From a virus (taxonomy: Duplodnaviria; Heunggongvirae; Uroviricota; Caudoviricetes), in IMG/VR virus record IMGVR_UViG_3300014614_000024, positions 1-37,985 of that record: a stretch of 37,985 bases of DNA; one strand, written 5' to 3'. Positions 1 through 30,672 of this stretch are shown here, one piece after another. A program made the translations under genes and the position numbers. A model generated the notes under the pieces. The model saw nothing but the letters and a program-made list of their open reading frames with translations, did no database searches and was not told where the DNA came from. Numbering within the stretch: the stretch's first letter is position 1; the number at the start of each line of letters is the position of its first letter.

Positions 1-258
1 ATGCAAACCGTTATTTTTGGTCGTCCGGGTTGCCCTTACTGTGTGCGTGCAAAAGATCTGGCTGAGAAATTGAGCAATGAACACGATGATTTTCAGTATC
101 ACTATGTAGATATTCGTGCGGAAGGGATCACTAAAGAAGATCTACAACAAAAGGCAGGTAAACCCGTAGAAACCGTGCCGCAGATTTTTGTCGATCAGCA
201 ACATATCGGCGGCTATACCGATTTTGCTGCATGGGTGAAAGAAAATCTGGACGCCTGA
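1..258 (+). CDS. grxA: glutaredoxin 1
   Basis: 85-aa product with CPYC redox motif; I recognise it as near-identical to E. coli GrxA; ATG start, TGA stop at 256-258. Confidence 0.93.
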   Translation: MQTVIFGRPGCPYCVRAKDLAEKLSNEHDDFQYHYVDIRAEGITKEDLQQKAGKPVETVPQIFVDQQHIGGYTDFAAWVKENLDA

Positions 259-267
259 TCGTCTGAC

Positions 268-300
268 AAGCCCTCGCGTTGAGGGCTTTACTGATTTTTT
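268..300 (+). terminator. hairpin (aagccctc/gagggctt) followed by T6 between convergent grxA and ybjM
   Basis: inverted repeat 268-275/281-288 with T-run 295-300, read directly from sequence; the T-run is 6 nt from the stem, so only a moderate intrinsic terminator. Confidence 0.4.
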
Positions 301-665
301 CTGTGCTGTGGTTTAAACAAACTACTGATAAATAAGAAACACAGTGCCCCCAGCGCACACCAGAACACCGCACTTAATAACCATGCCAGCTCTTGCCAGA
401 ATGAGCGCGTCGGTGAAAAAAACAGCCGCATAATGAGCATCGAACAGGGTGCCGCCAGCATTGCGCCAAACAGAGGTTTCAGGACTTCTCTACGCTGTGA
501 AAAGAAGCTGGCGACTGCTCCAGGAAGAATGAAAAATAGCAAGCCGATTTCAGGATGCCCGGCAGCCCGAAAAGCGCCTTTCATGTGCGTCGCCAGAAAA
601 AGGCACACCACAATGAAGAGGACAAAACAGCAGATTGCCCCCGCCCAACGTTGTTTATGTTTCAC
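288..665 (-). CDS. ybjM: inner-membrane protein YbjM
   Basis: 125-aa hydrophobic protein whose length and sequence match my recollection of E. coli YbjM; sits convergent to grxA as in K-12. Confidence 0.8.
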   Translation of the reverse strand: MKHKQRWAGAICCFVLFIVVCLFLATHMKGAFRAAGHPEIGLLFFILPGAVASFFSQRREVLKPLFGAMLAAPCSMLIMRLFFSPTRSFWQELAWLLSAVFWCALGALCFLFISSLFKPQHRKNQ

Positions 666-934
666 TCGTTCCTCCTGACACTGCGTCTATCGAACACATT
701 TTTCGCCAGTGTGGCGTTCAGTAAGATAAAGCCGCTTCGCATTCCATGCTAATATAGGCCAACGCAATTCATATAGCCGTTGATACCTAATGTGATTACA
801 CTAGTAAAATATATTGTTACTTTACTATCGTTTAGGTGCGCTGAATGAATCTGCGCCCTGAATTCTGGTAAAAAACATTATCGTAAATTACCATTTCTTT
901 CAACAGCTTACTAGTAAACAAGAAGTTAGCCTCC

Positions 935-2620
935 GTGAATATAAACGTCGCCGAATTGTTAAATGGGAATTACATTCTGTTATTATTTGTGGTCCTCGCG
1001 CTTGGGCTATGTCTCGGAAAGTTACGACTTGGTTCGATCCAACTGGGTAATTCCATTGGCGTTTTAGTCGTATCGCTGTTATTAGGCCAACAACATTTCA
1101 GCATTAACACCGATGCGCTTAATCTTGGCTTTATGCTGTTTATTTTCTGTGTTGGGGTTGAAGCCGGACCGAACTTTTTTTCCATTTTTTTTCGCGATGG
1201 GAAAAATTACCTAATGTTAGCACTGGTGATGGTTGGCAGTGCGCTGGTGATCGCCTTAGGGTTAGGTAAGCTGTTTGGCTGGGATATTGGCCTGACGGCC
1301 GGTATGTTAGCAGGCTCTATGACGTCGACACCGGTTCTGGTCGGTGCTGGCGATACACTGCGTCATTCCGGCATGGAAAGCAGGCAGCTCTCACTGGCAC
1401 TGGATAATCTGAGCCTCGGGTATGCCTTAACCTATTTAATCGGTCTGGTGAGTTTGATTGTTGGTGCGCGTTACTTGCCGAAATTGCAGCATCAGGACTT
1501 ACAGACCAGCGCCCAGCAAATCGCCCGCGAACGTGGCCTGGACACTGATGCCAACCGTAAGGTTTATTTACCGGTGATCCGCGCCTATCGCGTCGGCCCG
1601 GAGCTGGTGGCCTGGACCGACGGCAAAAATCTGCGTGAACTGGGTATTTATCGACAAACCGGCTGCTACATTGAACGTATTCGACGTAACGGGATTCTGG
1701 CAAATCCAGACGGTGATGCCGTGCTACAAATGGGCGATGAAATAGCGTTGGTAGGCTATCCCGACGCCCATGCCCGACTCGATCCCAGCTTCCGTAACGG
1801 TAAAGAAGTTTTCGATCGTGACCTTCTCGACATGCGTATCGTCACTGAAGAAGTGGTCGTTAAAAACCATAACGCTGTAGGTAAACGTCTCGCACAACTG
1901 AAGTTGACCGATCACGGTTGCTTCCTTAACCGCGTCATTCGTAGCCAGATTGAGATGCCGATAGATGACAACGTCGTGCTTAACAAAGGTGACGTTTTAC
2001 AAGTCAGCGGTGATGCCCGTCGCGTAAAAACCATCGCCGATCGCATCGGCTTTATCTCGATTCACAGCCAGGTCACTGACCTGCTGGCATTTTGCGCCTT
2101 CTTTGTTATTGGGCTGATGATCGGGATGATCACCTTCCAGTTCAGCACATTCAGTTTCGGCATGGGGAACGCTGCCGGGTTGTTATTCGCCGGAATTATG
2201 CTGGGCTTTATGCGTGCTAACCACCCGACCTTCGGTTACATTCCGCAGGGTGCATTAAGCATGGTGAAAGAGTTCGGCTTGATGGTGTTTATGGCAGGCG
2301 TTGGTCTGAGCGCCGGTAGCGGTATTAATAACGGCCTGGGCGCGATTGGCGGTCAGATGTTGATTGCCGGATTGATTGTCAGTCTGGTGCCCGTGGTTAT
2401 CTGTTTCTTGTTCGGTGCTTATGTATTGCGAATGAACCGCGCGCTGTTGTTCGGCGCAATGATGGGCGCACGTACCTGCGCGCCGGCAATGGAGATCATC
2501 AGTGATACAGCTCGCAGTAACATCCCGGCGCTGGGCTATGCGGGCACCTATGCAATCGCCAACGTCCTGCTGACGCTGGCAGGGACAATCATCGTCATGG
2601 TATGGCCAGGATTAGGATAA
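935..2620 (+). CDS. ybjL: putative AAE-family transporter YbjL (membrane domains plus central soluble region)
   Basis: 561-aa polytopic membrane protein with a central soluble region; same length and synteny as E. coli ybjL. Confidence 0.88.
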
Positions 2621-2732
2621 AACTGAAGTTGCCCTGAAAATGAAATTTTTTTGCACAACCGCAGAACTTTTCCGCAGGGCATCAGTCTTAATTAGTGCCA
2701 CTGCTTTTCTTTGATGTCCCCATTTTGTGGAG

Positions 2733-2776
2733 CCCATCAACCCCGCCATTTCGGTTCAAGGTTGATGGGTTTTTTG
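2733..2776 (+). terminator. rho-independent terminator downstream of ybjL
   Basis: stem cccatcaacc (2733-2742) pairs with ggttgatggg (2760-2769), followed by TTTTTT (2770-2775). Confidence 0.5.
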
Positions 2777-2855
2777 TTGCCTGAAATTTATGCCATTTAA
2801 AATCATGACGTTAGAAGCACTGTTTTTTAACGATGGCGACAAAATGGCGGCAGCA

Positions 2856-3074
2856 TCAAAGAGAGAGCGCCACCTGTCCTGATTTCATTGGATGCGGCTG
2901 AACCGGATTTGACTCTTTTGGCGTTGCAATCGAACGAACAAAAGTTTCATGGGTTACAAAAGTATGGCTGCAGTTAATATTCTGGCACTGGTTGTAACGC
3001 TCTTTGGTCAATGAAGATACCTGAAAACTGCTGCGAGTATGGGCGGCACTTCCACACAGTGGGCAAATCATCAT
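2856..3074 (-). CDS. ogr: Ogr/Delta-family zinc-finger late-gene activator (P2 Ogr / 186 B equivalent)
   Basis: 72 aa from the internal ATG at 3074; CPLCG-N19-CQNINC zinc-finger spacing like P2 Ogr; GGGGAG ~10 nt upstream; first gene inside the host junction, as ogr is in P2. Confidence 0.85.
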   Translation of the reverse strand: MMICPLCGSAAHTRSSFQVSSLTKERYNQCQNINCSHTFVTHETFVRSIATPKESNPVQPHPMKSGQVALSL

Positions 3075-3164
3075 TTTTCGAGTTCTCCCCATTTTTGCTA
3101 AATTCACAATAATGATACCGCATTATTCCATTTTGCAAACTTAAAAGTTCTCCATTGCGAAGAA

Positions 3165-4265
3165 TCATTCCATTTCGAAATCATCAATCCTCACTTCAAG
3201 CTCCAGACTGGTCGTAAAACCGTTATCCGGGCTGACGGTATGTGTCAGAGTCGTAATGGTCCATTCCGCATCATCTATCGGCTGTTTAAAACCACTGACC
3301 TTCACAGGCATTTCCGTGTAGAGATCTGCCCGCCCTTCCGCCAGTTGTAGCGAGAATGACGCAACGCCGCGTTGCAGACGTTCCCACTGCATTTTCGCTG
3401 CCCGTTCAGCGTTGCCCCGGTTGGCATAGGTGCGATTAAGTACCAGCACGTTTTCATCCGTACCCACCAGGTAATCGCCCTGCTTCGCTTCCGGCTCTTT
3501 CTTCTGCTTCTTAGTTCTGCGCTTACGCTTCACCGTGGTGCTTTCTTTCTTCGCGGGTTCACGGGTATGCAACCAGCTGGCAATTACGCCCGTGTAGGCT
3601 CCGCGATCTGCCAGGGTAAATCGGTGACTGTCGCCGTCCTTGCGTGTGATAGTGATCACTGGCAGTGGTTTACCAGTGGCGCTTTTGCCCTGCCCCTGCC
3701 GGATGAATAACAGATTGCCATTTTTCACCGACGCGATGGCACCGTACTGTCGCGCCAGTCGCATCAGAAAACTGCCGTCACTCTCATTAGTCTGGTCTAT
3801 ATGCTCCACGGGCTTATCCGACAGCTCTTTACCCAGTGCCATCTTCAGCTTGTGCCGCGCGGCTATTTCCTTCACCACTTCCCCGATGGTGGTGTTATGC
3901 CACGATTTTTCACGGCGGGGATTCAGGGTTTCCCGAAAATCAGCACTTCGCGCCCGGATAGTCAGGCGGTCCGGTGCGCCAGTGTGTTCAATCTCGTCCA
4001 CCGTGAATGCCCCTTTCGGGAAAAGCGGCTGCCTCTTCCAGCCCAGCGCCAGCGTAATGACCGCACCACGGCGCGGCAGCACGATTTTTCCATCGGCGTC
4101 GTCCAGCTCCAGATCAAGCTGGTCCGCTTCAAATCCCCGGTTATCCGTCAGCGTCAGCCCCATCAGGCGGTTGTCCAGCACAGTGGTGATATCCCTGCCT
4201 TCAATACTGATGCTGAATGCCGGAGTTTTGTTGCCTTTGTTAAGCAGTTCAGAGCTGAAATTCAC
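3165..4265 (-). CDS. D: tail protein D (late control gene D)
   Basis: 366 aa, recognisable P2 gpD homolog; GTG start at 4265; 4-bp overlap with U. Confidence 0.9.
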   Translation of the reverse strand: MNFSSELLNKGNKTPAFSISIEGRDITTVLDNRLMGLTLTDNRGFEADQLDLELDDADGKIVLPRRGAVITLALGWKRQPLFPKGAFTVDEIEHTGAPDRLTIRARSADFRETLNPRREKSWHNTTIGEVVKEIAARHKLKMALGKELSDKPVEHIDQTNESDGSFLMRLARQYGAIASVKNGNLLFIRQGQGKSATGKPLPVITITRKDGDSHRFTLADRGAYTGVIASWLHTREPAKKESTTVKRKRRTKKQKKEPEAKQGDYLVGTDENVLVLNRTYANRGNAERAAKMQWERLQRGVASFSLQLAEGRADLYTEMPVKVSGFKQPIDDAEWTITTLTHTVSPDNGFTTSLELEVRIDDFEME

Positions 4266-18010: not shown

Positions 18011-18661
18011 TCAGCGGCTGTCATTGCGCAGTCTGCGCTCCAGCTGCTGTTTGTCTTTTTTCACGCCACAGCGGGGATCGAGCTGCAACGCATGGTTGAG
18101 ATGGTTAAGGGCGGAAGCCGGATTGCTTTCACTCAGGACAGCGCCAATCGCTTTATGCAGACGCGCCCGTGACTGGTCCGGCATATCCAGACCGTCTGTC
18201 AGCTCCAGCGTCTGCAGCAACAGATCGGCATCAAAGCCGGTGGCGGCAAGCATTGCGCTCTGCGCCGCGTCTGCCATTTCCTCTGCCAGCACGGTCTGCA
18301 CATTGCGATTACCCAGCGGCATCACCCAGCCATGACGCAGGGCGTGACGCCCGATCTCCAGCGCCCCGGCATAATCTCCGGCATCAATGCGCCACAGCAT
18401 CACGTACATCAGCACGTCATCCTGTTGAGCGCCTCCGGCAGCAAGGACACCCTCCGCCCAGGCGGCGTACTTCGGCAGCAGCTCCACCTTGATTTCCGCT
18501 TTTTTGACCGTGGACTGAACGCCCTTGAGACGGCGGCGGTCTTCCGCCAGTTGCAGCAGCATCAGGTCATAGCCCGACGCGTGGCGAACGCTGCCGCCCT
18601 CGCGGGCGGCCTGTTCAGCCTGAACGCGCAGGCGATGCTGCCGTGCGGGACTCAGGCTCAT
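18011..18661 (-). CDS. M: terminase endonuclease (small) subunit M
   Basis: 216 aa, P2 gpM-like. Confidence 0.85.
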   Translation of the reverse strand: MSLSPARQHRLRVQAEQAAREGGSVRHASGYDLMLLQLAEDRRRLKGVQSTVKKAEIKVELLPKYAAWAEGVLAAGGAQQDDVLMYVMLWRIDAGDYAGALEIGRHALRHGWVMPLGNRNVQTVLAEEMADAAQSAMLAATGFDADLLLQTLELTDGLDMPDQSRARLHKAIGAVLSESNPASALNHLNHALQLDPRCGVKKDKQQLERRLRNDSR

Positions 18662-20715: not shown

Positions 20716-22482
20716 ATGAACACCACACTGACACCCGCAGATCTCGATCCCCGTCGGCAGGCCATGCTGCTGTACTTTCAGGGATACCGCGTAGCCCGCA
20801 TTGCTGAAATGCTGGGCGAGAAAGTTGCAACCGTTCACAGCTGGAAAAAACGCGACAAGTGGGGTGACTATGGGCCGCTGGATCAGATGCAGCTCACCAC
20901 CGCCGCACGCTACTGCCAGCTCATTATGAAGGAGCACAAAGAAGGGAAAGATTTCAAAGAAATTGACCTGCTGGCGCGCCAGTCGGAGCGCCACGCGCGG
21001 ATCGGCAAGTTTAACAATGGCGGCAACGAAGCCGACTTAAACCCTAACGTCGCCAACCGCAACAAAGGCCCGCGCCGTCAGCCGGAAAAGAATGTTTTCA
21101 CCGATGAACAGATAGAGAAACTGGAAGAAATCTTCCATTCCTCCATGTTCAACTACCAGCGCCACTGGTGGGAAGCCGGAAAAACCAACCGCATCCGCAA
21201 CCTGCTGAAGTCACGCCAGATCGGCGCGACCTTTTACTTTGCCCGTGAAGCCCTGATTGACGCCCTGCTTACCGGACGTAACCAGATTTTCCTTTCTGCC
21301 AGTAAGGCACAGGCTCACGTCTTTAAGCAGTACATCATCGACTTCGCCAAAGAAGTCGAGGTGGAGCTGAAAGGCGATCCGATGGTGCTTCCTAACGGGG
21401 CCACGCTTTACTTCCTCGGCACCAATGCCCGCACGGCGCAGAGTTACCACGGCAACCTGTATCTGGATGAATATTTCTGGATACCGAAATTCCAGGAGTT
21501 GCGCAAAGTGGCTTCCGGTATGGCTATTCACAAGAAATGGCGACAAACCTATTTTTCCACGCCATCCAGCCTGACCCACAGTGCTTATCCGTTCTGGTCC
21601 GGTGCGCTGTTCAACCGTGGACGCAACAAAGCTGACAAGGTGGACATCGACCTGTCCCACAGCAATCTGGCCCCCGGCCTACTGTGCGCAGACGGGCAAT
21701 ACCGCCAGATAGTCACCGTGGAAGATGCGGTGCGCGGCGGCTGTAACCTGTTCGACCTCGACCAGCTGCGCATGGAGTACAGCCCGGACGAATACCAGAA
21801 CCTGCTGATGTGCGAGTTCGTGGACGATCTCGCGTCCGTGTTCCCGCTCAGCGAACTGCAGGCGTGCATGGTGGACAGCTGGGAAGTCTGGACCGACTTT
21901 CATGCACTGGCCCTGCGCCCGTTTGGCTGGCGCGAAGTGTGGATCGGTTATGACCCGGCAAAAGGTACGCAGAACGGCGACAGTGCCGGATGCGTGGTGG
22001 TGGCTCCGCCAGCCGTGCCGGGTGGTAAGTTCCGCATTCTTGAGCGTCACCAGTGGCGCGGGATGGACTTCCGCGCCCAGGCTGACGCCATCAAAAAACT
22101 GACCGAACAGTATAACGTGACCTATATCGGTATCGACTCGACCGGCGTCGGTCACGGGGTTTACGAGAACGTGAAAGCGTTTTTTCCTGCCGTCAGGGAG
22201 TTTGTCTATAACCCCAACGTTAAAAACGCCCTGGTACTCAAGGCCTACGACATTATCAGCCACCGCCGTCTGGAGTTTGACGCCGGGCACACCGACATTG
22301 CGCAGTCATTTATGGCAATCCGTCGCGCTACCACTGCCAGTGGCAACCGCCCGACCTATGAAGCCAGCCGCAGCGAAGAAGCCAGCCATGCCGATCTGGC
22401 CTGGGCAACAATGCACGCACTGTTTAACGAACCGCTGCAGGGCGAGTCCGCCAATACCAGCAATATTGTGGAGATTTTTTGA
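20716..22482 (+). CDS. P: terminase ATPase (large) subunit P
   Basis: 588 aa, P2 gpP-like; divergent from O as in P2. Confidence 0.9.
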   Translation: MNTTLTPADLDPRRQAMLLYFQGYRVARIAEMLGEKVATVHSWKKRDKWGDYGPLDQMQLTTAARYCQLIMKEHKEGKDFKEIDLLARQSERHARIGKFNNGGNEADLNPNVANRNKGPRRQPEKNVFTDEQIEKLEEIFHSSMFNYQRHWWEAGKTNRIRNLLKSRQIGATFYFAREALIDALLTGRNQIFLSASKAQAHVFKQYIIDFAKEVEVELKGDPMVLPNGATLYFLGTNARTAQSYHGNLYLDEYFWIPKFQELRKVASGMAIHKKWRQTYFSTPSSLTHSAYPFWSGALFNRGRNKADKVDIDLSHSNLAPGLLCADGQYRQIVTVEDAVRGGCNLFDLDQLRMEYSPDEYQNLLMCEFVDDLASVFPLSELQACMVDSWEVWTDFHALALRPFGWREVWIGYDPAKGTQNGDSAGCVVVAPPAVPGGKFRILERHQWRGMDFRAQADAIKKLTEQYNVTYIGIDSTGVGHGVYENVKAFFPAVREFVYNPNVKNALVLKAYDIISHRRLEFDAGHTDIAQSFMAIRRATTASGNRPTYEASRSEEASHADLAWATMHALFNEPLQGESANTSNIVEIF

Positions 22483-23519
22483 TGGGAAAGAGTAAGAAGA
22501 ACCGCGCTGCGTCGACGAAACAGATCCAGCATAAAAGCCAGACTTCAGCCGAAGCATTCAGCTTCGGTGATCCCGTTCCTGTTCTGGACCGCCGCGAACT
22601 GCTGGACTATGTGGAATGCGTACAGATGGATCGTTGGTACGAGCCGCCTGTGAGTTTCGACGGACTGGCGCGAACCTTCCGCGCCGCCGTGCATCACAGC
22701 TCACCGATTGCAGTGAAGTGCAACATTCTGACCAGCACCTACATCCCTCACCCGCTGCTCAGCCAGCAGGCTTTTTCGCGTTTTGTACAGGACTATCTGG
22801 TTTTTGGTAACGCCTACCTGGAGAAACGCACGAACCGCTTCGGTGAAGTTATCGCCCTTGAGCCTGCACTGGCAAAATACACCCGACGCGGGTTAGACCT
22901 TGATACCTACTGGTTTGTGCAATACGGCATGACTACGCAGCCGTATCAGTTCACGAAAGGCAACATTTTTCATCTGATGGAACCGGACATCAACCAGGAG
23001 ATCTACGGCCTGCCTGGTTATCTTTCTGCCATTCCGTCAGCTCTGCTCAACGAGTCCGCCACGCTGTTCCGCCGCAAGTATTACATTAACGGCAGTCATG
23101 CAGGCTTCATCATGTACATGACCGATGCAGCGCAGAACCAGGAGGATGTGAACAACCTCCGCAATGCGATGAAAAGCGCCAAAGGTCCTGGTAACTTCCG
23201 TAACCTGTTTATGTACTCGCCTAACGGTAAAAAGGACGGGCTTCAGATTATCCCGTTGTCAGAAGTGGCGGCGAAGGATGAGTTCCTGAATATCAAGAAC
23301 GTGAGCCGGGACGACATGATGGCGGCGCATCGTGTGCCGCCACAAATGATGGGGATAATGCCTAATAATGTCGGGGGGTTTGGGGATGTGGAGAAGGCCA
23401 GCCGTGTATTCGTCCGAAATGAGCTAATGCCACTACAAAAGCGATTACAGGAGATGAATGATTGGCTTGGCAAGGAGGCGATACAGTTTAATACCTACTC
23501 GCTAGATATAGTCCCATAA
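22479..23519 (+). CDS. Q: portal protein Q
   Basis: 346 aa, P2 gpQ-like; 4-bp overlap with P. Confidence 0.9.
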   Translation: MMGKSKKNRAASTKQIQHKSQTSAEAFSFGDPVPVLDRRELLDYVECVQMDRWYEPPVSFDGLARTFRAAVHHSSPIAVKCNILTSTYIPHPLLSQQAFSRFVQDYLVFGNAYLEKRTNRFGEVIALEPALAKYTRRGLDLDTYWFVQYGMTTQPYQFTKGNIFHLMEPDINQEIYGLPGYLSAIPSALLNESATLFRRKYYINGSHAGFIMYMTDAAQNQEDVNNLRNAMKSAKGPGNFRNLFMYSPNGKKDGLQIIPLSEVAAKDEFLNIKNVSRDDMMAAHRVPPQMMGIMPNNVGGFGDVEKASRVFVRNELMPLQKRLQEMNDWLGKEAIQFNTYSLDIVP

Positions 23520-23524
23520 TAAGA

Positions 23525-23546
23525 AAAGCCACCGTTTGGTGGCTTT
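23525..23546. terminator. bidirectional hairpin terminator between convergent Q and the HIRAN gene
   Basis: aaagccacc-gttt-ggtggcttt, flanked by A-run on the left and ttttctt on the right. Confidence 0.55.
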
Positions 23547-23553
23547 TCTTCAT

Positions 23554-24294
23554 TTACTCAATAGGTTCAAACTCATCCTGAGGAATCAGCGTCGATTGAC
23601 AGGCTTGGCTTAGTACTCCTGATAATTTACATAATAACCGATAGTTATGAGGAGCATCATCGCTAATCTTTTCGACCGTTAAAGTGATTGATTTTGGATC
23701 ATCCAATAACATCTTCTTGATATCATTACTTAAATACCTAGGGCAGTAACCAACGATTTCAGCTGGTTTATCTGCACGAACGACAACAGCATCCCCATCG
23801 TATTCATTTTGAAGATCCAAGCAAAGACGCAAAATTTGCCCCGGTTTCAATTCAGATACACGAGCATTAGCTAAGCTATTTAAGTAACCAAGTCCATGTA
23901 AGAAGAAAAAATGCTCAAAGTTACCATCAGAATCAACATCAATTTTTTTGAAAATCTGCAGCTGATCAGTGCTTCGTAAGCCTCCCGAGCGAGCAAGAAT
24001 ATCGATAGGATTTACCTTATCTTCTTCAAATCCAAGCCATTTAATGAAACTCGGATACTCTGGACGTCTCGGTGATAAAAGGCGATTTTTAAAAAGAGGA
24101 AACAATTCTTCCGAAACATAAGTTTCACGAACATCACTCATGCCGCTAAACTTTGTAAATTTAGTAGATTTAAGAGCACCTTTGGTATACCTGAAAACAT
24201 ACCCCGATTTGCGCTCTTGCAAGTTACCAACAACATGCCAGTCTCTGGTATCTGGTGCCTGCCATGCGACGTAAACGGAGTTTGTATTAGTCAT
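23554..24294 (-). CDS. HIRAN-domain protein (cargo; second gene of a two-gene operon)
   Basis: 246 aa; C-terminal segment LRLCLDLQNEYDGDAVVVRADKPAEIVGYCPRYLSNDIKKMLLD fits the HIRAN signature (N.yD..A..V...G.IGY.PR) as I recall it; ATG overlaps the upstream stop (ATGA); AT-rich. Confidence 0.6.
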   Translation of the reverse strand: MTNTNSVYVAWQAPDTRDWHVVGNLQERKSGYVFRYTKGALKSTKFTKFSGMSDVRETYVSEELFPLFKNRLLSPRRPEYPSFIKWLGFEEDKVNPIDILARSGGLRSTDQLQIFKKIDVDSDGNFEHFFFLHGLGYLNSLANARVSELKPGQILRLCLDLQNEYDGDAVVVRADKPAEIVGYCPRYLSNDIKKMLLDDPKSITLTVEKISDDAPHNYRLLCKLSGVLSQACQSTLIPQDEFEPIE

Positions 24295-25205
24295 TCTAGT
24301 AACCTTCTGCGATTTTCCATTACCATTAACGTTGCAAATCTACGTGCACTGTCGGATATACACGATGAAGGCACTTGGTTAAACACATCTGTAATGGAAT
24401 CTTCTGTTAAAACGCTCAACTTACCTAACCAATGGTCGCGAGCGGCAACTCTCCCTTCAACTGCATGTTGAAATGCTTCAACGGTCAGCAAGGGCTTTTT
24501 ATCAGTTTTTGCTTTGAATAGCTCAGAGCGAGCTTTTCTTACAAAACATGGGATTTGTCGATTTTTATCTTTAGTATTAAGCCGTTCGTTACGCTCATCA
24601 TCTAACATCTCCCTTCCTAAACTAGCGGCATGATCGTATGTTGGACACAAAAACTGCTCACCAGTTTCATTGTTAAGCATGATCGCCCAATTTTCATGAT
24701 GGCGATCTTGATTACTCACAAGTGCATCGAGCATCAAAAATCCACAAAATACATCTGCTGCATTTAGCCCGGTTAGATCATATACACTCGGAGGAGGCTT
24801 GATAGATTCCCTATCTAAACAACCCAATACCCTTGTGACAGTGTGTTCTCTGACCCTTACCGGCTTTTCCCCGGCTTGTAAAGGCCCTGGATAATCGAAT
24901 GTCGAACTGTGAAGCACTTCATTTCCCATTACCATCCGGAAACCAGATGGAATGATATTCTGAGTCACCACACCGAATCGACCATTGTATCGCGCCAAAT
25001 CATAGCTAGCATGTGGAATGTTAAGCAAATGACATAACTCAGCAGCACACTTTTCAGACCAATGCTCGCCAGTACCTGGCCTAGAGTACTTAAACAACTG
25101 CAAATTTACAGTGTCATCGGAGAAATAGAACCAAAACTTCTCTTTGGTTCCTAACTGTTCAAGATCGTTAGCTACGGGGCTAAGCTCTACCAATTGGTAT
25201 GGCAT
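24291..25205 (-). CDS. HipA-like Ser/Thr kinase core (short form, lacks the HipA N-terminal subdomains)
   Basis: 304 aa; motifs GTKEKF (compare HipA G.QEK), SNQDRHHENW (catalytic loop D.H..N) and LCPTYD (compare HipA LAPAYD); AGGGA upstream of the ATG at 25205. Confidence 0.65.
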   Translation of the reverse strand: MPYQLVELSPVANDLEQLGTKEKFWFYFSDDTVNLQLFKYSRPGTGEHWSEKCAAELCHLLNIPHASYDLARYNGRFGVVTQNIIPSGFRMVMGNEVLHSSTFDYPGPLQAGEKPVRVREHTVTRVLGCLDRESIKPPPSVYDLTGLNAADVFCGFLMLDALVSNQDRHHENWAIMLNNETGEQFLCPTYDHAASLGREMLDDERNERLNTKDKNRQIPCFVRKARSELFKAKTDKKPLLTVEAFQHAVEGRVAARDHWLGKLSVLTEDSITDVFNQVPSSCISDSARRFATLMVMENRRRLLE

Positions 25206-25350
25206 CTGACATCCCTGTTTAGCGGATTATGAATAAGTTAGGTTCCATTTTATCCAAACATTGTCAAATACTCTAAGATTTATTAGATGATAGAGCGATA
25301 CTGTATGCATGTCCAGCAATCAAATCAATATATAACTCTTATATGACTTA

Positions 25351-25380
25351 GCGCGCGCTCGTATCCCCGCCACGCCTGCC
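25351..25380 (-). other. putative cos site (cohesive-end region)
   Basis: minus-strand GGCGTGGCGGGGA (plus 25365-25376 ccccgccacgcc) matches the first 13 nt of the 186/P2 cohesive end as I recall it; lies in the only large non-coding gap between Q and A; flanked by repeated TCATGC motifs. Confidence 0.35.
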
Positions 25381-25867
25381 CGCTTTATGCAGTGGTTTTC
25401 ATGCACCTGCATGACATGAGTAAAAGCTCGCCAGTTCTAGCAGGTCTCTGCAAAAACGATCCTCAATCGATCATGCGATTTCATGCAGCATAGTCATGCA
25501 CAGCCAAGGGAAGCGTAAATCCGTATCTGAATGACCGCTGAAAAGCGAATCATACGGGTTTACAAAGATGAAAGTCCGCTGTGAGTGAAAAGCGGACATT
25601 AACTCCTTGCTTTTTGGCACTGAAACAGAGCGAAGCAGCATGTAAGCTGTTACGGATGCGCAGCGGTGACAACAGCAACTTCAATTAAGGAAATGCTCTT
25701 GGTTTTCGGGGAGACTTTTCGAGCGATATATGATAATGAAGACACTAAAAAACTGAACAGAAACGTCTAGCTCAATATGACTTCTGTTCAGGTATAAATG
25801 GTCTATTTATATATTCTCTCTTCAAATCCTTACTGAATACTCTCGAAGATGGCTAACGCCCCCTCTC

Positions 25868-26830
25868 TTAACCTTCATAGTTCATGCCGCCAAGATACGA
25901 AGGTATCATCATTAATGATTTAACCCTTTCTTTTTCTTTTTCGGTGAGATGACGACATGCAAATGGGTAAATATTGATCAAAAATGTCTTGAGTTCGTCA
26001 AATGCCTCATCTGAATATAGGGTCCCAGATCTTAACTCATTCATTATTGTCATGACCCATTTTATAAACACAGTTGGCATCATTACATCAGCTATATCTT
26101 CCCAGCCATCAATAAGGCCATTGTTTGTTTGTTTTCTAACATACTGCCGGAGTGCTTGGTCGCAGTTGCCTCGACACGTCCAAAAAATATGTTCATTATA
26201 CTCTGGTTCTTTTTCGTAGTCGGTGCGGATTCTTTGCCATATAGTGATAATTCCCTTGTCGTCTTGAGACAGAAGCTCTTTCTTGCAAACTTTGCATTTT
26301 AAGCTAGGTTCATCGGAAAATATTCTTGCGGGTTTGGGGTTTTCTGTTTTCCACTCAGATAACGACTTTGGGAAGTACCTTTCGGCAATTTCCAATCCTC
26401 TGGAAGAGTGTAAAAGTTCCCTCTCTATTTTCTCTTTATCGAAAACCTGAAATTCAATTCGTCCTTTCAACCCGTCAAGTATTCCAGACAGACCTGCACT
26501 AGCAAGAGTTGAATAGAACCCGATAAATCCTTGGCAGTTATTCGCTATTACTCGATCAGTAATATTTGCATCATCTCCTGGATTAACTGAATTTCCACTA
26601 TGAGCTTTATGCTTACAGCTTACCAACCAACGGATAATTGTTTCCCCGCCGACACCAGTCCTTTTTTCTTCGGCTATAATATCAACCCCACCGTCAGCCC
26701 CTCTATCTGGGTCAGATATAATTTTATATCCCAGAAAAGCTAAGAAGTCGCGAGAAAAAAGTTCAAATGTGTCTTGCAGCCCTGTTGCTTTATGAGCCTC
26801 TGGTATTTCTTTGAAGTCTAATACTGGCAT
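25868..26830 (-). CDS. Mrr-cat-like PD-(D/E)xK nuclease domain fused to a Cys-rich (CxxC...CxxxC) C-terminal domain; cargo
   Basis: 320 aa; N-terminal GADGGVDIIAEE...LVSCKHK resembles the restriction-endonuclease (Mrr catalytic) core; C-terminal CKVCKK...CRGNC; AT-rich; own divergent promoter region. Confidence 0.5.
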   Translation of the reverse strand: MPVLDFKEIPEAHKATGLQDTFELFSRDFLAFLGYKIISDPDRGADGGVDIIAEEKRTGVGGETIIRWLVSCKHKAHSGNSVNPGDDANITDRVIANNCQGFIGFYSTLASAGLSGILDGLKGRIEFQVFDKEKIERELLHSSRGLEIAERYFPKSLSEWKTENPKPARIFSDEPSLKCKVCKKELLSQDDKGIITIWQRIRTDYEKEPEYNEHIFWTCRGNCDQALRQYVRKQTNNGLIDGWEDIADVMMPTVFIKWVMTIMNELRSGTLYSDEAFDELKTFLINIYPFACRHLTEKEKERVKSLMMIPSYLGGMNYEG

Positions 26831-27112
26831 TTTTATGGGGTCCTTAAGTTGTTAATGCTTATTGGGTGGAAAGAACCGTATTTAAACACGGAGTTTCTGC
26901 CTCTGTAAATTTAATATGTAGAACACTCATCACTTTTTATAACTGACAATAGGATATTTAGACGTCTGTTTTTGGCACAAAGCAGACAAAAAACTGAAGG
27001 CCCACTGTGAACGAGAAACGGACTATGATACTAACAAGAGAGCATCACTGTTAATATTTGAACAATTAATGCTCAGCTATTTATCTATTTTTACAATTAG
27101 AAAGGACTTGTA

Positions 27113-27523
27113 ATGGTTACGGTTGATGAATTAAAGATGAAATATCCGGACGCGAATGCCTGGCAAATGGGCGACAGCCCTGAACTGGCTAACGAGCTTG
27201 CAGCGCTTATCAAAAAAGGAATTAAAACGGCCTCCTGCGGCTCTTATGCCTCTTACCAGAAGGAAGAGTTTGCCCCAAGGATTGGGAGCTATAACATCAT
27301 CCTTAACGGCCAAGATGTACCGGTATACGTGACCCGGCTGGTGTCGATGCGACTGGTGCGTTTTTGTGATGTTACTGCCGAGTTCGCTCGCAAGGAAGGT
27401 GAAGGCGATTTGAGTCTTGAATATTGGCAGAGAGAGCATCAACGATTTTTTACATGTGAAGGTTACTTTTCTGATGATATGGAGCTGATTATGGAAGAGT
27501 TTGAAGTTGTTGATGTTTTGTAA
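27113..27523 (+). CDS. ASCH (PUA-like) domain protein; cargo
   Basis: 136 aa; resembles the YqfB/ASCH family by eye (IKKGIKTAS..., ...AEFARKEGEGD...); AAAGGA 6 nt upstream of the ATG. Confidence 0.55.
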   Translation: MVTVDELKMKYPDANAWQMGDSPELANELAALIKKGIKTASCGSYASYQKEEFAPRIGSYNIILNGQDVPVYVTRLVSMRLVRFCDVTAEFARKEGEGDLSLEYWQREHQRFFTCEGYFSDDMELIMEEFEVVDVL

Positions 27524-27713: not shown

Positions 27714-27947
27714 TTAATGCAGCCAGCTGTCGTCTTCCCACACCTTCTGCATAATTTTCATCACTTGTTTTCTTTCTTCGTCCAGTTGCAATCCGGTAAG
27801 TTCCACACCGTTAGAGCTACCTTTGCGGATACGAATTACCGTTTTGGGATACAGGGGGCGCAGATTGCGGTAAAGCTCGGATTCAAGGGCGTCCAGGGTA
27901 GACTGGCTAATCTTCTGCTCTTTATCGATCATTATTTCAATGCGCAT
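27714..27947 (-). CDS. DinI-family protein
   Basis: 77 aa; MRIEIMIDK...ELYRNL...KIMQKVWEDD parallels E. coli DinI (MRIEVTIAK...ILQETWESADDW); GAGGTG 7 nt upstream. Confidence 0.7.
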   Translation of the reverse strand: MRIEIMIDKEQKISQSTLDALESELYRNLRPLYPKTVIRIRKGSSNGVELTGLQLDEERKQVMKIMQKVWEDDSWLH

Positions 27948-27958
27948 AAAAAGTCACC

Positions 27959-28147
27959 TCAACTGATGACATCCATTGAGCGGTTGTATTCGTGGGTTCT
28001 GATTTTTGCCATGAGTTCATCTGTTAGTTCAGAAACCCACTGCAAAGCCAGCCCCTTCTCTTCATCACTACACTCACTAGTCGCTACAAGCTTAAGAAAA
28101 AAATCAATGCGCTGGAGCTTCAAAGACTCCAAAAAATAGTCCTGCAT
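27959..28147 (-). CDS. small acidic protein, first gene of the SOS-box operon (candidate Tum-like antirepressor)
   Basis: 62 aa; AGGAGG upstream of ATG 28147; LexA box 43-58 bp upstream; positional analogy to 186 tum only, no sequence recognition. Confidence 0.35.
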   Translation of the reverse strand: MQDYFLESLKLQRIDFFLKLVATSECSDEEKGLALQWVSELTDELMAKIRTHEYNRSMDVIS

Positions 28148-28299: not shown

Positions 28300-30672
28300 T
28301 TAATACAGGTTCCGCCACTTATCATCTTCCTGCAAACGCTGGTTCCGATAGAAGATACGCAGGCCTGCTCCTGACGGAATACTGCCGCCGCGAAGGAGTA
28401 AATCGACCTCTTTCTCGCTACCATCAAATCCTCTGGACTTCAGCTCATAGACGAGCTGCAGTCGCTGATGGTCTGTAATTCGCTGTTTGTAGTCTTTACG
28501 CCGTTTCGGTTTAACCAGGCGTAACCTTGCAGCCAGTTCCCGGCGCTCTTTTTTGCTCATACTGTGCAGGTAATCGTGCAACTCCTTGTCATCCATGCGG
28601 GTAATGTCCGTTCTGATGTCCCCATCAGCTGATTTATCTTTCTCCTGTTGGTTCAAATTTTCAGCAAGGGGACAGTTATTGCCACGAGTCCAAGGGGCGC
28701 AAGCGCCCTGGTCGGCTGCCGCCTCCTGAACGTCAACGGCCTTACGAACCATTTTCCACTTCACGGCATGAGTGCAGATCTTGCCCTCTGCAATAGGTGA
28801 CCAGATGCCATAAATACGAATGCCGTGATCGCCATAGGCGGTCGGCTCTTCGTTGATTTCATAAGCAGTTCTGATGAGGTGATATTTGCGGGGAACCAGT
28901 ACGCCACCCTGCTTCATGATGTAGGTGGCAAAACAACCAGCATCAGCAGCAGCCAGAATGGCATCAAGGCGCGGGTTATCCAGTACCGGCGCACCTGCTT
29001 TTTTGTCCCCCTGTTGCCTTGCCGCCTGACCAGCCAGCAATCGCAGTTCACGGTAAGCCTGACGCCCCGGAATGCCAAAGAAGCGGAATTGCTGAACACG
29101 ATGCAGAGACGCCCAGGCATTAACGTATTCAGCATTATCACGCAGGGATTTCCCCGTTTCCTTGCTGATCTCGCCAGCCAGACCACGCCCGTCAATGTTC
29201 TTACTGATGTATTTCGCGATGTAGCTTGTTGGCGTACCTTTGCGCGGGTTAATCAACTCAGACTTAAAGCGCGGCCCAGTGTTATTGCCCAGCTCCTCGC
29301 GGTCTTCACGGATGGCAAACTTACGCAGTAATGCAGTGATGGTGCGGCGGTCTTTTTTGCGCATAAAACACAACAGGTGCCAGTGAACTGTACCGTCATG
29401 ATGCGGCTCAGCCACCCGCACGCCATACCACCGCAATCCGGCTTTGTGCATCGCCTTACGAAATGCAGCAAACATGCCGACCAGATAATCACTGCTTTGT
29501 CTTACCGTCGCATTTGTCCAGGTTGGGTTGGGCCTGCCGTTATTTAGCGTGGAATGGAAACGTGACGGACAGGTGATGGTGTAGAAAACGGCGCAGTCAC
29601 CGCGCATTTCCGCGATAAGCTCCAGACCTTTAACACAGGCCATCATCTCATTGCGGCGATGCGCAGGGTTGCTGCTGCTGGCGTTTACCACATCCTCCAT
29701 GTCCAGCGTGTCGCCGTCTTCGTTCACCAGTTCATGAGAACGGAAAAACTCCAGCGACTTACGGCGCTGCTCACGTTTATGCATCACGGCTTCATAGCTG
29801 ACATAGGGAGATGCTTTTTTGCTGACCAGGCAAACAGCACGCAACTGCTCTTCCCGCCATTCGCAACGCATCTTCCATAATTTCCGGTACCACCAGTCGG
29901 CGCACAACATACGCGCCAGCGAACCCGGAATGAGTTCATAGGGCACGGGTTTACGGCGGTTTCTTTTCCGGCGGAGTTGCTCAAACGCAGGCGGTATGAC
30001 ATCCAGTCGCAGGGTTTCTGCTGCCACCTTTTCCCATGTCTTGCGGATTTCTTCTGGCTTAACGTCATCGGTGGCATACAAATCGCCACAAGCTGCATCA
30101 AGGCACATGCTCATATGCGCAGCAACAAGGGTGGACAGGCGTTTCACCTGATCCTGACTCATTTCAGGCAGAATCAGCAGGCCGTCCAGCCCTTCATGGC
30201 TTGCCATAAAGCGAAAAGAAGTGGATAGCTGACTGTCGCGCACATGCTCCAGCCGTTCCAGACATGGCTTAATCGTCTCACGCAAATAGCGGGAATAAGC
30301 CTTTGGCCTGCCAAGGCTGCTGAAGTATTCAATACGTTGCATCAGCGGCTTGCTGATATGGGAAGGCTGGGCATTGACGTCCGCCAGAATGACCATATCT
30401 GGATTAAAACGCTGCTGCTCATGCGCCAGCTTTGCCCGACTAATGAGCTTATCCTGCTCCATTTCGCGCTGTACAGGATCACGGGATTCATTAAAGAAAT
30501 AACGCTCCCAGACCTGATCACTCAGTACCTCGCGGCGCAGGTGTTCCTGCTCGTTATCGGCAGCGTACAGAGCGATCAGGTTTGAAAGCGCAGAAACTGA
30601 AGATTGCTCTTCTGTCTCTACGTAAGGATTGATTGCTTTTTTCTCAGCATTCCAGGAATAGCTGTAGTTCAT
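28300..30672 (-). CDS. A: replication initiation endonuclease A (rolling-circle HUH Rep)
   Basis: 790 aa; HUH motif HWHLL and two-tyrosine motif YIAKYISK; same position as P2/186 gene A. Confidence 0.85.

What the first reader, a model, noticed from the sequence alone, without database searches (positions are those of the whole stretch)
25351..25510. Putative cos site displaced ~1.85 kb from the portal gene, with clustered TCATGC repeats
The minus-strand motif GGCGTGGCGGGGA matches the 5' part of the 186/P2 cohesive-end sequence as I recall it, and is followed within 150 bp by five copies of TCATGC (25398, 25471, 25481, 25495 and related catgac/catgag). In P2 the cos site is within ~150 bp of Q; here the kinase/HIRAN operon lies between Q and the motif. 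Cargo would then sit on both sides of cos, which means acquisition events within a region whose sequence the terminase must still recognise.
Basis: partly seen in the sequence, partly recalled or inferred. Interest (0 to 1): 0.5.

Follow-up and report, generated by a model that had tools for sequence, protein, structure and literature searches.

The report
Ordinary P2-family phage cos site
This is the DNA-packaging (cos) site of a Fels-2-like, P2-family prophage of E. coli, flanked on both sides by swappable accessory genes, and both the site and that layout are already described for this phage family.

Summary
GGCGTGGCGGGGA is at 25376..25364 on the minus strand. Five TCATGC/GCATGA copies lie within 110 bp, which 0 of 300 simulated sequences reach.

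The cos reading is supported well beyond the 13-mer. A 152-bp block (25351-25502) aligns without a single gap to the cos regions of P2, 186 and satellite P4, and at about 84% identity to Fels-2-type phages. The flanks drop to random identity (25-31%). The 19-nt end GGCGTGGCGGGGATACGAG is identical to the published putative cos of Salmonella phage SEN8.

The TCATGC repeats are a family-wide feature. GCAT cores sit at exactly -123, -110, -100 and -28 from the nick, with an inverted copy at -36, in P2, 186, P4 and Fels-2-type sites.

The "displacement" is normal for this lineage. In Fels-2-type IMG/VR contigs the cos-to-portal gap exceeds 400 bp in 33 of 40 (median 1.7 kb). SEN8, SopEPhi, Fels-2, 4LV2017, 813R9 and Cartapus all carry cargo there, and the literature has called this position a hotspot since 1996.

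The cargo was not inserted inside the recognised sequence. It replaces the spacer that starts exactly at the block's edge (+27). Actual cleavage is inferred by homology and was not shown. Low interest; already known.

The parts
25351..25502 (-). Conserved cos block. It runs from -126 to +26 relative to the first base of the cohesive end, read on the minus strand (P2 orientation).
   Evidence: It aligns without gaps to P2, 186, P4, SEN8, Fels-2, SopEPhi, 813R9, MLG42, Cartapus and 4LV2017. Median identity to 62 Fels-2-type IMG/VR sites is 84% in the block (scored over -128..+26) and 25-31% in the flanks. The information-content profile falls to zero outside the block. The block is present nearly full-length in 1274 of 5426 complete E. 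coli genomes.
25358..25376 (-). Predicted 19-nt 5' cohesive end, GGCGTGGCGGGGATACGAG. The predicted nicks are between 25377 and 25376 on the minus strand and between 25358 and 25357 on the plus strand.
   Evidence: It is identical to the 'putative cos site' at bases 1-19 of Salmonella phage SEN8 (PMC5427200). It matches the annotated 186 cos at 15 of 19 bases and P2 cosL at 14 of 19. The cleavage positions are inferred by homology only.
25351..25357 (-). CGCGCGC element directly after the cohesive end (+20..+26); this is the Q-side edge of the block.
   Evidence: GCGCGC at +21..+26 is almost invariant in 118 unique IMG/VR cos regions, although it was not part of the search pattern. Homology to all relatives stops at +27.
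25399..25414 (-). Proximal repeat pair TCATGCA-GG-TGCATGA, a 7-bp inverted repeat at -38..-23. It is followed by the conserved AAAACC, whose first A is the last base of the pair.
   Evidence: GCAT at -28 is present in 76 of 77 non-redundant family cos regions, and ATGC at -36 in 55 of 77. Both are also present in 186. In P2 and P4 the -28 copy is kept, and P4 keeps a weakened -36 copy.
25471..25500 (-). Distal array of three direct (T/C)GCATGA repeats, with GCAT cores at -123, -110 and -100 (spacings of 13 and 10 bp).
   Evidence: The GCAT cores are at the same offsets in the Fels-2-type phages, 186 and P4; in P2 the first is at -122. Among 77 non-redundant IMG/VR sites they are present in 40, 56 and 59 sequences respectively.
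25426..25445 (-). Spacer inverted repeat (consensus GCCCGCCAG-AA-CTGGCGGGC followed by a T run). The copy here is weakened.
   Evidence: The paired fraction is 0.67, against 0.30-0.42 when the partner columns are slid. The window has T instead of C at -63, as do the isolated phages SopEPhi and Cartapus. Its role is unknown.
25287..25315 (-). Promoter-like site (TGGACA-17-TATCAT) for the kinase/HIRAN operon, lying outside the cos block.
   Evidence: Consensus scan, 10 of 12 matches. This is weak evidence on its own.
24291..25205 (-). Cargo gene on the portal side of cos: HipA-like kinase (PADLOC candidate PDC-M03A).
   Evidence: PADLOC E = 1.4e-121. The Pfam HipA_C match is weak.
23554..24294 (-). 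Cargo gene on the portal side of cos: HIRAN-domain protein (PADLOC candidate PDC-M03B).
   Evidence: Pfam HIRAN E = 1.1e-13. PADLOC E = 3.4e-93.
23523..23548 (.). Bidirectional terminator-like hairpin (AAAAGCCACC-GTTT-GGTGGCTTTT) between the portal stop codon and the HIRAN stop codon.
   Evidence: Read directly from the sequence. In cargo-free relatives a different terminator-bearing spacer occupies +27 to the portal stop.
22479..23519 (+). Portal protein (gpQ homologue).
   Evidence: Pfam Phage_portal E = 1e-19.
20716..22482 (+). Terminase large subunit (gpP homologue), the enzyme expected to nick cos.
   Evidence: Pfam Terminase_6N, Terminase_6C and Terminase_5 (gpP-like).
18011..18661 (-). 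Terminase small subunit (gpM homologue), the presumed cos-recognition subunit.
   Evidence: Pfam Phage_term_smal E = 2.2e-40.
25574..25597 (-). Terminator-like hairpin (GTCCGCT...AGCGGAC, then a T-rich tail on the minus strand) downstream of the Mrr-like gene, outside the cos block.
   Evidence: Read directly from the sequence. The consensus scan did not call it.
25868..26830 (-). Cargo gene on the gpA side of cos: Mrr_cat-like restriction endonuclease-domain protein.
   Evidence: Pfam Mrr_cat E = 4.7e-6. Among the complete E. coli genomes, only strain MB06022 covers at least 80% of the 3.8-kb query that spans this gene. The gene is absent from all 120 IMG/VR loci.
27113..27523 (+). Cargo gene on the gpA side of cos: ASCH-domain protein.
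   Evidence: Pfam ASCH E = 2e-21.
27714..28147 (-). DinI-like (77 aa) and 62-aa genes, the backbone genes that in cargo-free relatives lie directly next to cos.
   Evidence: ORFs. The same gene pair is annotated next to cos in Fels-2, SEN8, MLG42, 813R9 and E. coli SCU-106. Assignment is by position and size; the proteins were not aligned.
28300..30672 (-). Replication endonuclease (gpA homologue), the far border of the gpA-gpQ hotspot.
   Evidence: Pfam Phage_GPA E = 1.1e-127.

Best explanation
The region is the cos (cohesive-end) packaging site of a Fels-2/Elveevirus-like P2-family prophage of E. coli.

The functional unit is a compact block of about 152 bp (25351-25502), read on the minus strand. 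It has three parts:
- **Nicking site.** The 19-nt sequence GGCGTGGCGGGGATACGAG, flanked by GGGCA on one side and CGCGCGC on the other. By homology with P2, 186 and P4, the terminase large subunit (gpP homologue, 20716-22482) makes staggered nicks here and leaves 19-nt 5' overhangs.
- **GCAT-core repeats in a fixed register**, on the side that becomes the right end of the virion DNA. An inverted pair lies at -36/-28 and three direct copies at -123/-110/-100.
- **A spacer of conserved length but variable sequence** between the two repeat groups, containing a short inverted repeat.

The repeats are most likely the docking sites of the terminase recognition subunit (gpM homologue, 18011-18661). 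That would make them the counterpart of lambda cosB. The exact spacing suggests the DNA is wrapped or bent around an oligomer.

Everything outside the block is free to vary:
- On the portal side, the spacer from +27 to the portal stop codon has been replaced by a kinase/HIRAN cassette (PADLOC candidate PDC-M03) with its own promoter-like site and terminator.
- On the gpA side, an Mrr-like gene and an ASCH gene sit between the block and dinI.

These are the two halves of the known gpA-gpQ accessory and defence hotspot of P2-like phages.

**Shown here:** the homology, the register of the repeats, the sharp edges of the block, and the variability of the flanks.
**Inferred:** the cleavage positions, the overhang length, which protein binds the repeats, and whether this prophage is still inducible.
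For: **Location and homology**
- The exact 13-mer is present and unique in the window.
- The ungapped alignment to P2, 186 and P4 runs from about -125 to +26.
- The 19-mer is identical to the SEN8 putative cos, and the SEN8 record starts at that base (PMC5427200). It is also identical in Fels-2, SopEPhi, 813R9, MLG42 and Cartapus. Cartapus annotates it as 'putative cos site, homologous to the cos of P2 phage'.
- Terminase small and large subunits, portal and gpA are all present in P2 gene order around the site.

**Repeats**
- GCAT cores are at -123, -110, -100 and -28 in the Fels-2-type phages, 186 and P4 (P2's first copy is at -122), and the inverted copy at -36 is present in all of these except P2 and P4.
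- In 77 non-redundant IMG/VR cos regions, found with a pattern that constrained only -23..+11, the unconstrained positions TGCAT (-29..-25), TCATGCA (-38..-32), GCATG (-110, -100) and GCGCGC (+21..+26) are the islands of conservation. Information content is about zero beyond -125 and +27.
- P4 shares only cos with P2 (PMC9122126, PMC9594776) yet keeps the repeats. This ties them to packaging rather than to neighbouring genes.

**This copy looks intact**
- Its score against a position weight matrix (PWM) built from the Fels-2-type sites ranks 22nd of 62.
- It departs from a >=90% consensus at one position only (-63). The isolated phages SopEPhi and Cartapus have the same base there.

**Flanks vary**
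- E. coli prophages with the same kinase/HIRAN cargo lose similarity to the window at 25499-25501 in 9 of the 14 partial hits listed. On the gpA side they carry nothing (strain SCU-106) or SIR2 plus an ATPase (strain 89-3156).
- Cargo-free relatives have an unrelated 170-bp spacer from +27 to the portal stop.
Against: - No experimental mapping of termini exists for any phage with this 19-mer. SEN8's cos was assigned during annotation (PMC5427200).
- Positions 14-19 of the overhang (TACGAG) differ from 186 (AAGCAT) and P2 (AAGCAC). The length and exact cut sites are therefore assumed.
- I found no binding data for gpM on the GCAT repeats. The primary paper on P2/P4 cos (Ziermann & Calendar 1990) is not held in the library.
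- The conserved recognition-like sequence lies on the right-end side of the nick, opposite to lambda cosB. The lambda analogy is functional only.
- The spacer hairpin is weakened in this copy.
- Whether the prophage is inducible is unknown.
Confidence: 0.88

Rival explanations
1. The block is a relic: a cos sequence kept by descent in a defective prophage that no longer packages DNA.
For: The prophage was not shown to be inducible. The spacer hairpin is degraded compared with most relatives. Only 16 of 1390 E. coli records match the block at >=95% identity.
Against: All strongly conserved positions are intact, and the PWM score is mid-range. The only departure from a >=90% consensus is shared with the isolated phages SopEPhi and Cartapus. 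The terminase, portal and gpA ORFs are full-length with strong Pfam matches. The window holds a complete P2-order set of ORFs.
Confidence: 0.07
2. The TCATGC/GCATGA repeats are operator sites for a regulator of neighbouring genes, such as the cargo promoter or the dinI/tum operon, and are not part of the packaging signal.
For: A promoter-like site lies 36 bp beyond the block. In P2 the old-tin transcript starts about 150 bp from the right end. No protein-binding data were found.
Against: The repeats keep the same offsets from the nick in P2, 186, the Fels-2-type phages and satellite P4, even though the neighbouring genes are unrelated in each. The distance to the nick never varies, whereas everything beyond the block is replaced freely.
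Confidence: 0.04
3. The 13-mer and the hexamer cluster are a chance resemblance.
For: TCATGC is not over-represented in the window as a whole.
Against: There are 154 bp of ungapped homology to annotated cos sites. Blastn to Fels-2-type phages gives E-values down to 5e-53. None of 300 simulations reached the observed clustering.
Confidence: 0.01

Closest known systems
cos sites of coliphages P2 and 186 and satellite P4 (19-nt 5' cohesive ends; the 55-bp conserved core of Ziermann & Calendar 1990, as cited in PMC9594776 and PMC5694545)
   Same: Same position in the genome map. The alignment has no gaps from about -125 to +26. The GGCG(A/T)GGCGGGGA start of the overhang is the same, as are the flanking AAAACC, AAG-GGGC and GCGCGC elements. 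The GCAT repeats are at the same offsets.
   Different: Overhang positions 14-19 read TACGAG instead of AAGCA(C/T). The spacer between the repeat groups is unrelated in sequence. The site is 1.86 kb from the portal gene, against about 190 bp in P2 and 186.
Putative cos of Fels-2-type phages (Felsduovirus and Elveevirus: SEN8, Fels-2, SopEPhi, RE-2010, Cartapus, Klebsiella 4LV2017)
   Same: The 19-mer is identical in all of those checked except 4LV2017, which has one change. The block is about 84-90% identical. Cargo genes lie between cos and the portal gene in SEN8, SopEPhi, Fels-2, 4LV2017, 813R9 and Cartapus.
   Different: The cargo itself differs: kinase/HIRAN here, against an HNH endonuclease, a retron, DUF4145, Hypoth_Ymh and others. 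This copy has a weakened spacer hairpin.
The gpA-gpQ (cos-adjacent) defence hotspot of P2-like phages (Rousset et al. 2022, PMC9122126; PMC13586616). Earlier, the cosL-Q position was named as a site of foreign-gene uptake (Dodd & Egan 1996 and Nakayama 1999, cited in PMC5694545).
   Same: Variable accessory and defence-candidate genes lie between gpA and gpQ, next to cos. Relatives that are otherwise the same carry different content.
   Different: Nothing essential differs. This report adds that the hotspot is really two independent sub-sites, separated by an invariant block of about 152 bp with base-precise edges.
Phage lambda cos (cosQ-cosN-cosB)
   Same: It works in a similar way: a nicking site that gives 5' overhangs, plus an adjacent array of short repeats with a bendable spacer that is presumably bound by the small terminase subunit.
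   Different: No sequence relationship was seen or tested. The overhang is 19 nt rather than 12 nt. The repeat array lies on the opposite side of the nick relative to the end nearest the head genes. From my own recollection of the older literature, not checked here, P2 packages monomeric circles.

Membership tests
P2-family cos site | A cohesive-end sequence homologous to the 19-nt ends of P2, 186 and P4 | tested here: met
   15 of 19 bases match 186, 14 of 19 match P2 and P4, and 19 of 19 match the SEN8 putative cos.
P2-family cos site | A conserved core around the ends (the 55-bp core shared by P2 and P4) | tested here: met
   The -36..+26 stretch aligns without gaps. TGCAT-AAAACC, AAG-GGGC and GCGCGC are invariant or nearly so.
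P2-family cos site | Location between the replication/accessory end (gpA side) and the portal-terminase genes (gpQ, gpP) of a P2-order genome | tested here: met
   Pfam assignments for gpA, gpQ, gpP and gpM and the ORF map.
P2-family cos site | Virion DNA ends with 19-nt 5' overhangs at this position | not testable with these tools
   This needs virion DNA. For this 19-mer only an annotation-based assignment exists (PMC5427200; one search found no other paper containing the sequence).
P2-family cos site | The site is sufficient for packaging of a plasmid by the cognate terminase | not testable with these tools
   This is an experimental question. For P2 and P4, the flanks around the 55-bp core raise transduction efficiency (PMC9594776).
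gpA-gpQ cos-adjacent hotspot of P2-like phages | Gene content varies at the locus between otherwise syntenic relatives | tested here: met
   The portal side varies from 171 to 3526 bp among Fels-2-type contigs. The gpA side is empty, holds SIR2 plus an ATPase, or holds Mrr plus ASCH in E. coli prophages that share the same portal-side cargo.
gpA-gpQ cos-adjacent hotspot of P2-like phages | The cargo encodes anti-phage defence | tested here: inconclusive
   The kinase and HIRAN proteins match the PADLOC candidate system PDC-M03A/B. The Mrr_cat match is weak. No functional data were found.

The most novel reading that the evidence does not exclude
The GCAT array has a strictly fixed register: -123, -110 and -100, plus the inverted pair at -36/-28. 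There is not one indel over about 150 bp across P2, 186, P4 and the Fels-2-type phages, even though the spacer sequence has turned over completely. On this reading the array is the docking scaffold for the P2-family small terminase. The base-precise edges of the block would then define a minimal portable packaging module that also serves as the shared recombination anchor separating two independently evolving defence-gene hotspots. I could not find this anatomy described at this resolution in the papers I could read. The 1990 primary paper, which may already contain it, was not available.
Probability: 0.45. Interest if true: 0.3.

Novelty: already known. Interest (0 to 1): 0.12.

Why it matters
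It matters little beyond annotation.

- It fixes the packaging site and the predicted virion ends of a very common E. coli prophage type. The block is in about 23% of complete E. coli genomes.
- It shows that the "gpA-gpQ hotspot" is two sub-sites separated by an untouchable 152-bp block.
- The practical use is for engineering: a minimal cos cassette for Fels-2-type or P2-type cosmids and transducing particles, and precise boundaries for mining defence-gene cargo.

Tried and rejected
- **Primary paper on P2/P4 cos (Ziermann & Calendar 1990).** Not held in the library. What I say about the 55-bp core comes from papers that cite it.
- **Experimentally mapped termini for this 19-mer.** Only the SEN8 genome announcement contains the sequence, and there it was assigned during annotation.
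- **Papers on gpM binding to cos.** Nothing useful was found. Three literature searches failed on a term shorter than three characters.
- **ORFs over the block.** The 56-aa and 44-aa ORFs at 25471-25641 and 25550-25684 overlap or lie beside it. I treated them as mechanical ORFs; nothing supports them, and some deposited records call 'hypothetical proteins' over the same sequence.
- **Terminator-like call inside the block.** The scan called one at 25380-25395 on the + strand. It corresponds to a weak inverted repeat next to the nick that P2 and P4 have in stronger form. I did not treat it as a terminator.
- **MAFFT alignment of the flanks beyond the block.** It gave only gap-ridden noise. I therefore used ungapped comparison anchored on the nick.
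- **A second cos in the window** (for example, a satellite). None was found within 2 mismatches of the 13-mer.

Full report
**What is there**

The window is a P2-order prophage. It is 99.9% identical over the tested 3.8 kb to E. coli strain MB06022. Pfam identifies these genes:

| Gene | Coordinates | Strand |
|---|---|---|
| Small terminase (gpM-like) | 18011-18661 | - |
| Large terminase (gpP-like) | 20716-22482 | + |
| Portal (gpQ-like) | 22479-23519 | + |
| Replication endonuclease (gpA-like) | 28300-30672 | - |

From the portal gene towards gpA the order is:
- a bidirectional terminator-like hairpin (23523-23548);
- a HIRAN-domain gene (23554-24294, -) and a HipA-like kinase gene (24291-25205, -), which match the PADLOC candidate system PDC-M03B/A at E = 3e-93 and 1e-121;
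- a promoter-like site (25315..25287);
- the region of the finding;
- a hairpin with a T-rich tail (25574-25597);
- an Mrr_cat-like gene (25868-26830, -);
- an ASCH gene (27113-27523, +);
- a DinI-like gene and a 62-aa gene (27714-28147, -).

**The observation**

GGCGTGGCGGGGA is present once, on the minus strand at 25364-25376. TCATGC is at 25399, 25471, 25481 and 25494 on the + strand and at 25409 on the - strand.

The hexamer is not enriched in the window overall (27 copies, 33.8 expected). Five copies within 110 bp is far beyond chance. The Poisson probability is about 2e-8 per 110-bp stretch, and none of 300 Markov simulations reached five. The motif lies 1857 bp from the portal stop codon.

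**Is it a cos site?**

That test is passed clearly.

- Read on the minus strand and anchored on the first G of the motif, the sequence aligns without any gap to P2, 186 and satellite P4 from about -125 to +26.
- Blastn finds the same block of about 150 bp at 82-91% identity in Fels-2, SopEPhi, RE-2010, SEN8, and Klebsiella, Yersinia and Escherichia Peduoviridae, with E-values down to 5e-53.
- The 19 bases GGCGTGGCGGGGATACGAG (25376..25358) are identical to the feature annotated "putative cos site" at bases 1-19 of Salmonella phage SEN8. The SEN8 record is cut exactly there, and the sequence was published as that phage's cos (PMC5427200).
- The same 19-mer is in Fels-2, SopEPhi, 813R9, MLG42 and Cartapus. 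Cartapus annotates it as homologous to P2 cos.
- Against the experimentally grounded annotations it matches 186 at 15 of 19 bases and P2 at 14 of 19. The differences are confined to position 5 (P2 only) and positions 14-19.

Cleavage at these positions in this lineage rests on homology. I found no mapped termini for this 19-mer.

**The repeats**

In all 11 sequences compared, GCAT cores occupy the same offsets from the nick: -123 (-122 in P2), -110, -100 and -28. An inverted copy at -36 is present in all of them except P2 and P4. In the window:
- the proximal pair forms the 7-bp inverted repeat TCATGCA-GG-TGCATGA (25399-25414);
- the distal three are direct (T/C)GCATGA copies spaced 13 and 10 bp apart (25471-25500).

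This gave 118 unique cos regions, or 77 after removing sequences >=90% identical. At positions the pattern did not constrain:
- TGCAT at -29..-25 is almost invariant (GCAT at -28 in 76 of 77);
- GCGCGC at +21..+26 is almost invariant;
- TCATGCA at -38..-32 and GCATG at -110 and -100 are clear islands of conservation (55, 56 and 59 of 77), and GCAT at -123 is present in 40 of 77;
- information content is about zero beyond about -125 and beyond +27.

The spacer between the two repeat groups keeps its length exactly while its sequence turns over. It holds a CCAG-N4-CTGG inverted repeat, with a paired fraction of 0.67 against 0.30-0.42 for slid controls.

P4 shares nothing with P2 except cos (PMC9122126; PMC9594776), yet it keeps the repeats at the same offsets. 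A packaging role is therefore much more likely than a role in regulating neighbouring genes.

My reading is that the repeats are the docking array of the terminase recognition subunit, held in a fixed helical register. This step is inferred. No binding data were found.

**Is this copy intact?**

Scored against a position weight matrix built from 62 Fels-2-type sites, the window ranks 22nd of 62. It departs from a >=90% consensus at a single position (-63, C to T, in the spacer hairpin). The isolated phages SopEPhi and Cartapus share that change.

**Is the "displacement" unusual, and did cargo enter the recognised sequence?**

Neither.

*The gap to the portal gene is typical for this lineage.* These are the IMG/VR loci where the portal gene could be located:

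| cos type | Loci | Median cos-to-portal distance | Loci >400 bp |
|---|---|---|---|
| Fels-2 type | 40 | 1738 bp (range 171-3526) | 33 |
| P2 type | 33 | 195 bp | 3 |
| 186 type | 15 | 200 bp | 5 |

The window measures 1861 bp on this tblastn-based estimate. Among the 28 Fels-2-type loci with both sides measured, both sides look occupied in 9, using rough cut-offs of >400 bp to the portal stop and >1000 bp to the gpA end.

*Deposited phages show the same layout.*

| Phage | Cargo between cos and the portal gene |
|---|---|
| SEN8 | Hypothetical protein plus an HNH endonuclease |
| SopEPhi | orf14 and orf15 |
| Fels-2 | A 1.7-kb gene |
| 4LV2017 | A retron effector plus reverse transcriptase |
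| 813R9 | One gene (Hypoth_Ymh domain) |
| Cartapus | DUF4145 |

[quoted passage not shown] Rousset et al. 2022 define the gpA-gpQ, cos-adjacent locus as a defence hotspot with 1,650 gene arrangements in E. coli.

*The junctions lie outside the block.*
- Cargo-free relatives have an unrelated spacer of about 170 bp, carrying a terminator, from +27 to the portal stop. In the window that whole spacer is replaced, and similarity resumes only inside the portal gene.
- On the other side, E. coli prophages with the same kinase/HIRAN cargo stay about 99% identical to the window up to 25499-25501 and then diverge. This holds for 9 of the 14 partial hits listed.
- One of these prophages has dinI directly next to cos (strain SCU-106). 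Another has SIR2 plus an ATPase there (strain 89-3156).
- The kinase/HIRAN cassette sits at the same place in three IMG/VR contigs with different gpA-side distances.

The block therefore behaves as an invariant island between two independently exchanging sub-sites.

**How common is it?**

The 152-bp block is present nearly full-length in 1274 of 5426 complete E. coli genomes, including BL21(DE3).

**Verdict**

- The cos interpretation is well supported by homology, though cleavage was not shown.
- The repeats are a conserved part of the family's cos anatomy.
- The supposed oddity, a cos far from the portal gene with cargo on both sides, is the usual and already-described state of this lineage.
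- The cargo lies outside the recognised sequence.

This is a correct but ordinary annotation. The one mildly new point is the base-level anatomy: the fixed register of the GCAT array and the sharp edges of the block. The 1990 primary paper, which I could not read, may already contain it.

Noticed in passing
window 25426-25445; family-wide at -69..-50 from the nick: A CCAG-N4-CTGG inverted repeat sits in the otherwise unconserved spacer of P2-family cos sites. In Fels-2-type phages it is a strong GC hairpin followed by a T run, which looks like a terminator for transcription coming from the gpA/dinI side into cos. The paired fraction is 0.67 against 0.30-0.42 for slid controls. The window's copy is weakened. 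Its role (terminator, bend site or protein site) is unknown.
   Followed up: partly
window 23554-25205 (-): The HipA-like kinase and HIRAN-domain pair matches the PADLOC phage-defence candidate PDC-M03A/B. It recurs at exactly this cos-to-portal position in many E. coli prophages and in three IMG/VR contigs. I found no functional data. Rousset 2022 does not mention HIRAN or HipA.
   Followed up: partly
window 25868-27523: The gpA-side cargo is a 320-aa protein with an N-terminal Mrr_cat nuclease domain plus a divergently oriented ASCH-domain protein. Among the complete E. coli genomes, only strain MB06022 covers at least 80% of the 3.8-kb query that spans this cargo. It is in none of the 120 IMG/VR loci.
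   Followed up: no
L092 (IMGVR_UViG_3300046474_000544), nicks at 1371 and 8618 in P2 orientation: One contig carries two different cos sites 7.2 kb apart: a Fels-2-type site (GGCGTGGCGGGGGTACGAG) and a 186-type site (GGCGTGGCGGGGATAGCAT). The 186-type site has TGCGCGAG after the 19-mer, so the usual GCGCGC ends one base short. The Fels-2-type site has a 1-bp shorter gap in the proximal inverted repeat. This may be a satellite sitting next to a helper prophage.
   Followed up: no
IMG/VR cos regions: The family's 19-mers fall into discrete types, chiefly ...A(A/T)AGCA(C/T) and ...(A/C/G/T)TACGA(G/T). Positions 13-19 vary and positions 1-12 are fixed except for A/T at position 5. Whether the types track terminase clades, and so packaging specificity between helpers and satellites, was not tested.
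   Followed up: no
E. coli BL21(DE3) NC_012892.2 877665-877815 (H118): The laboratory strain BL21(DE3) carries the same cos block at 93% identity, presumably in its P2-like prophage remnant.
   Followed up: no
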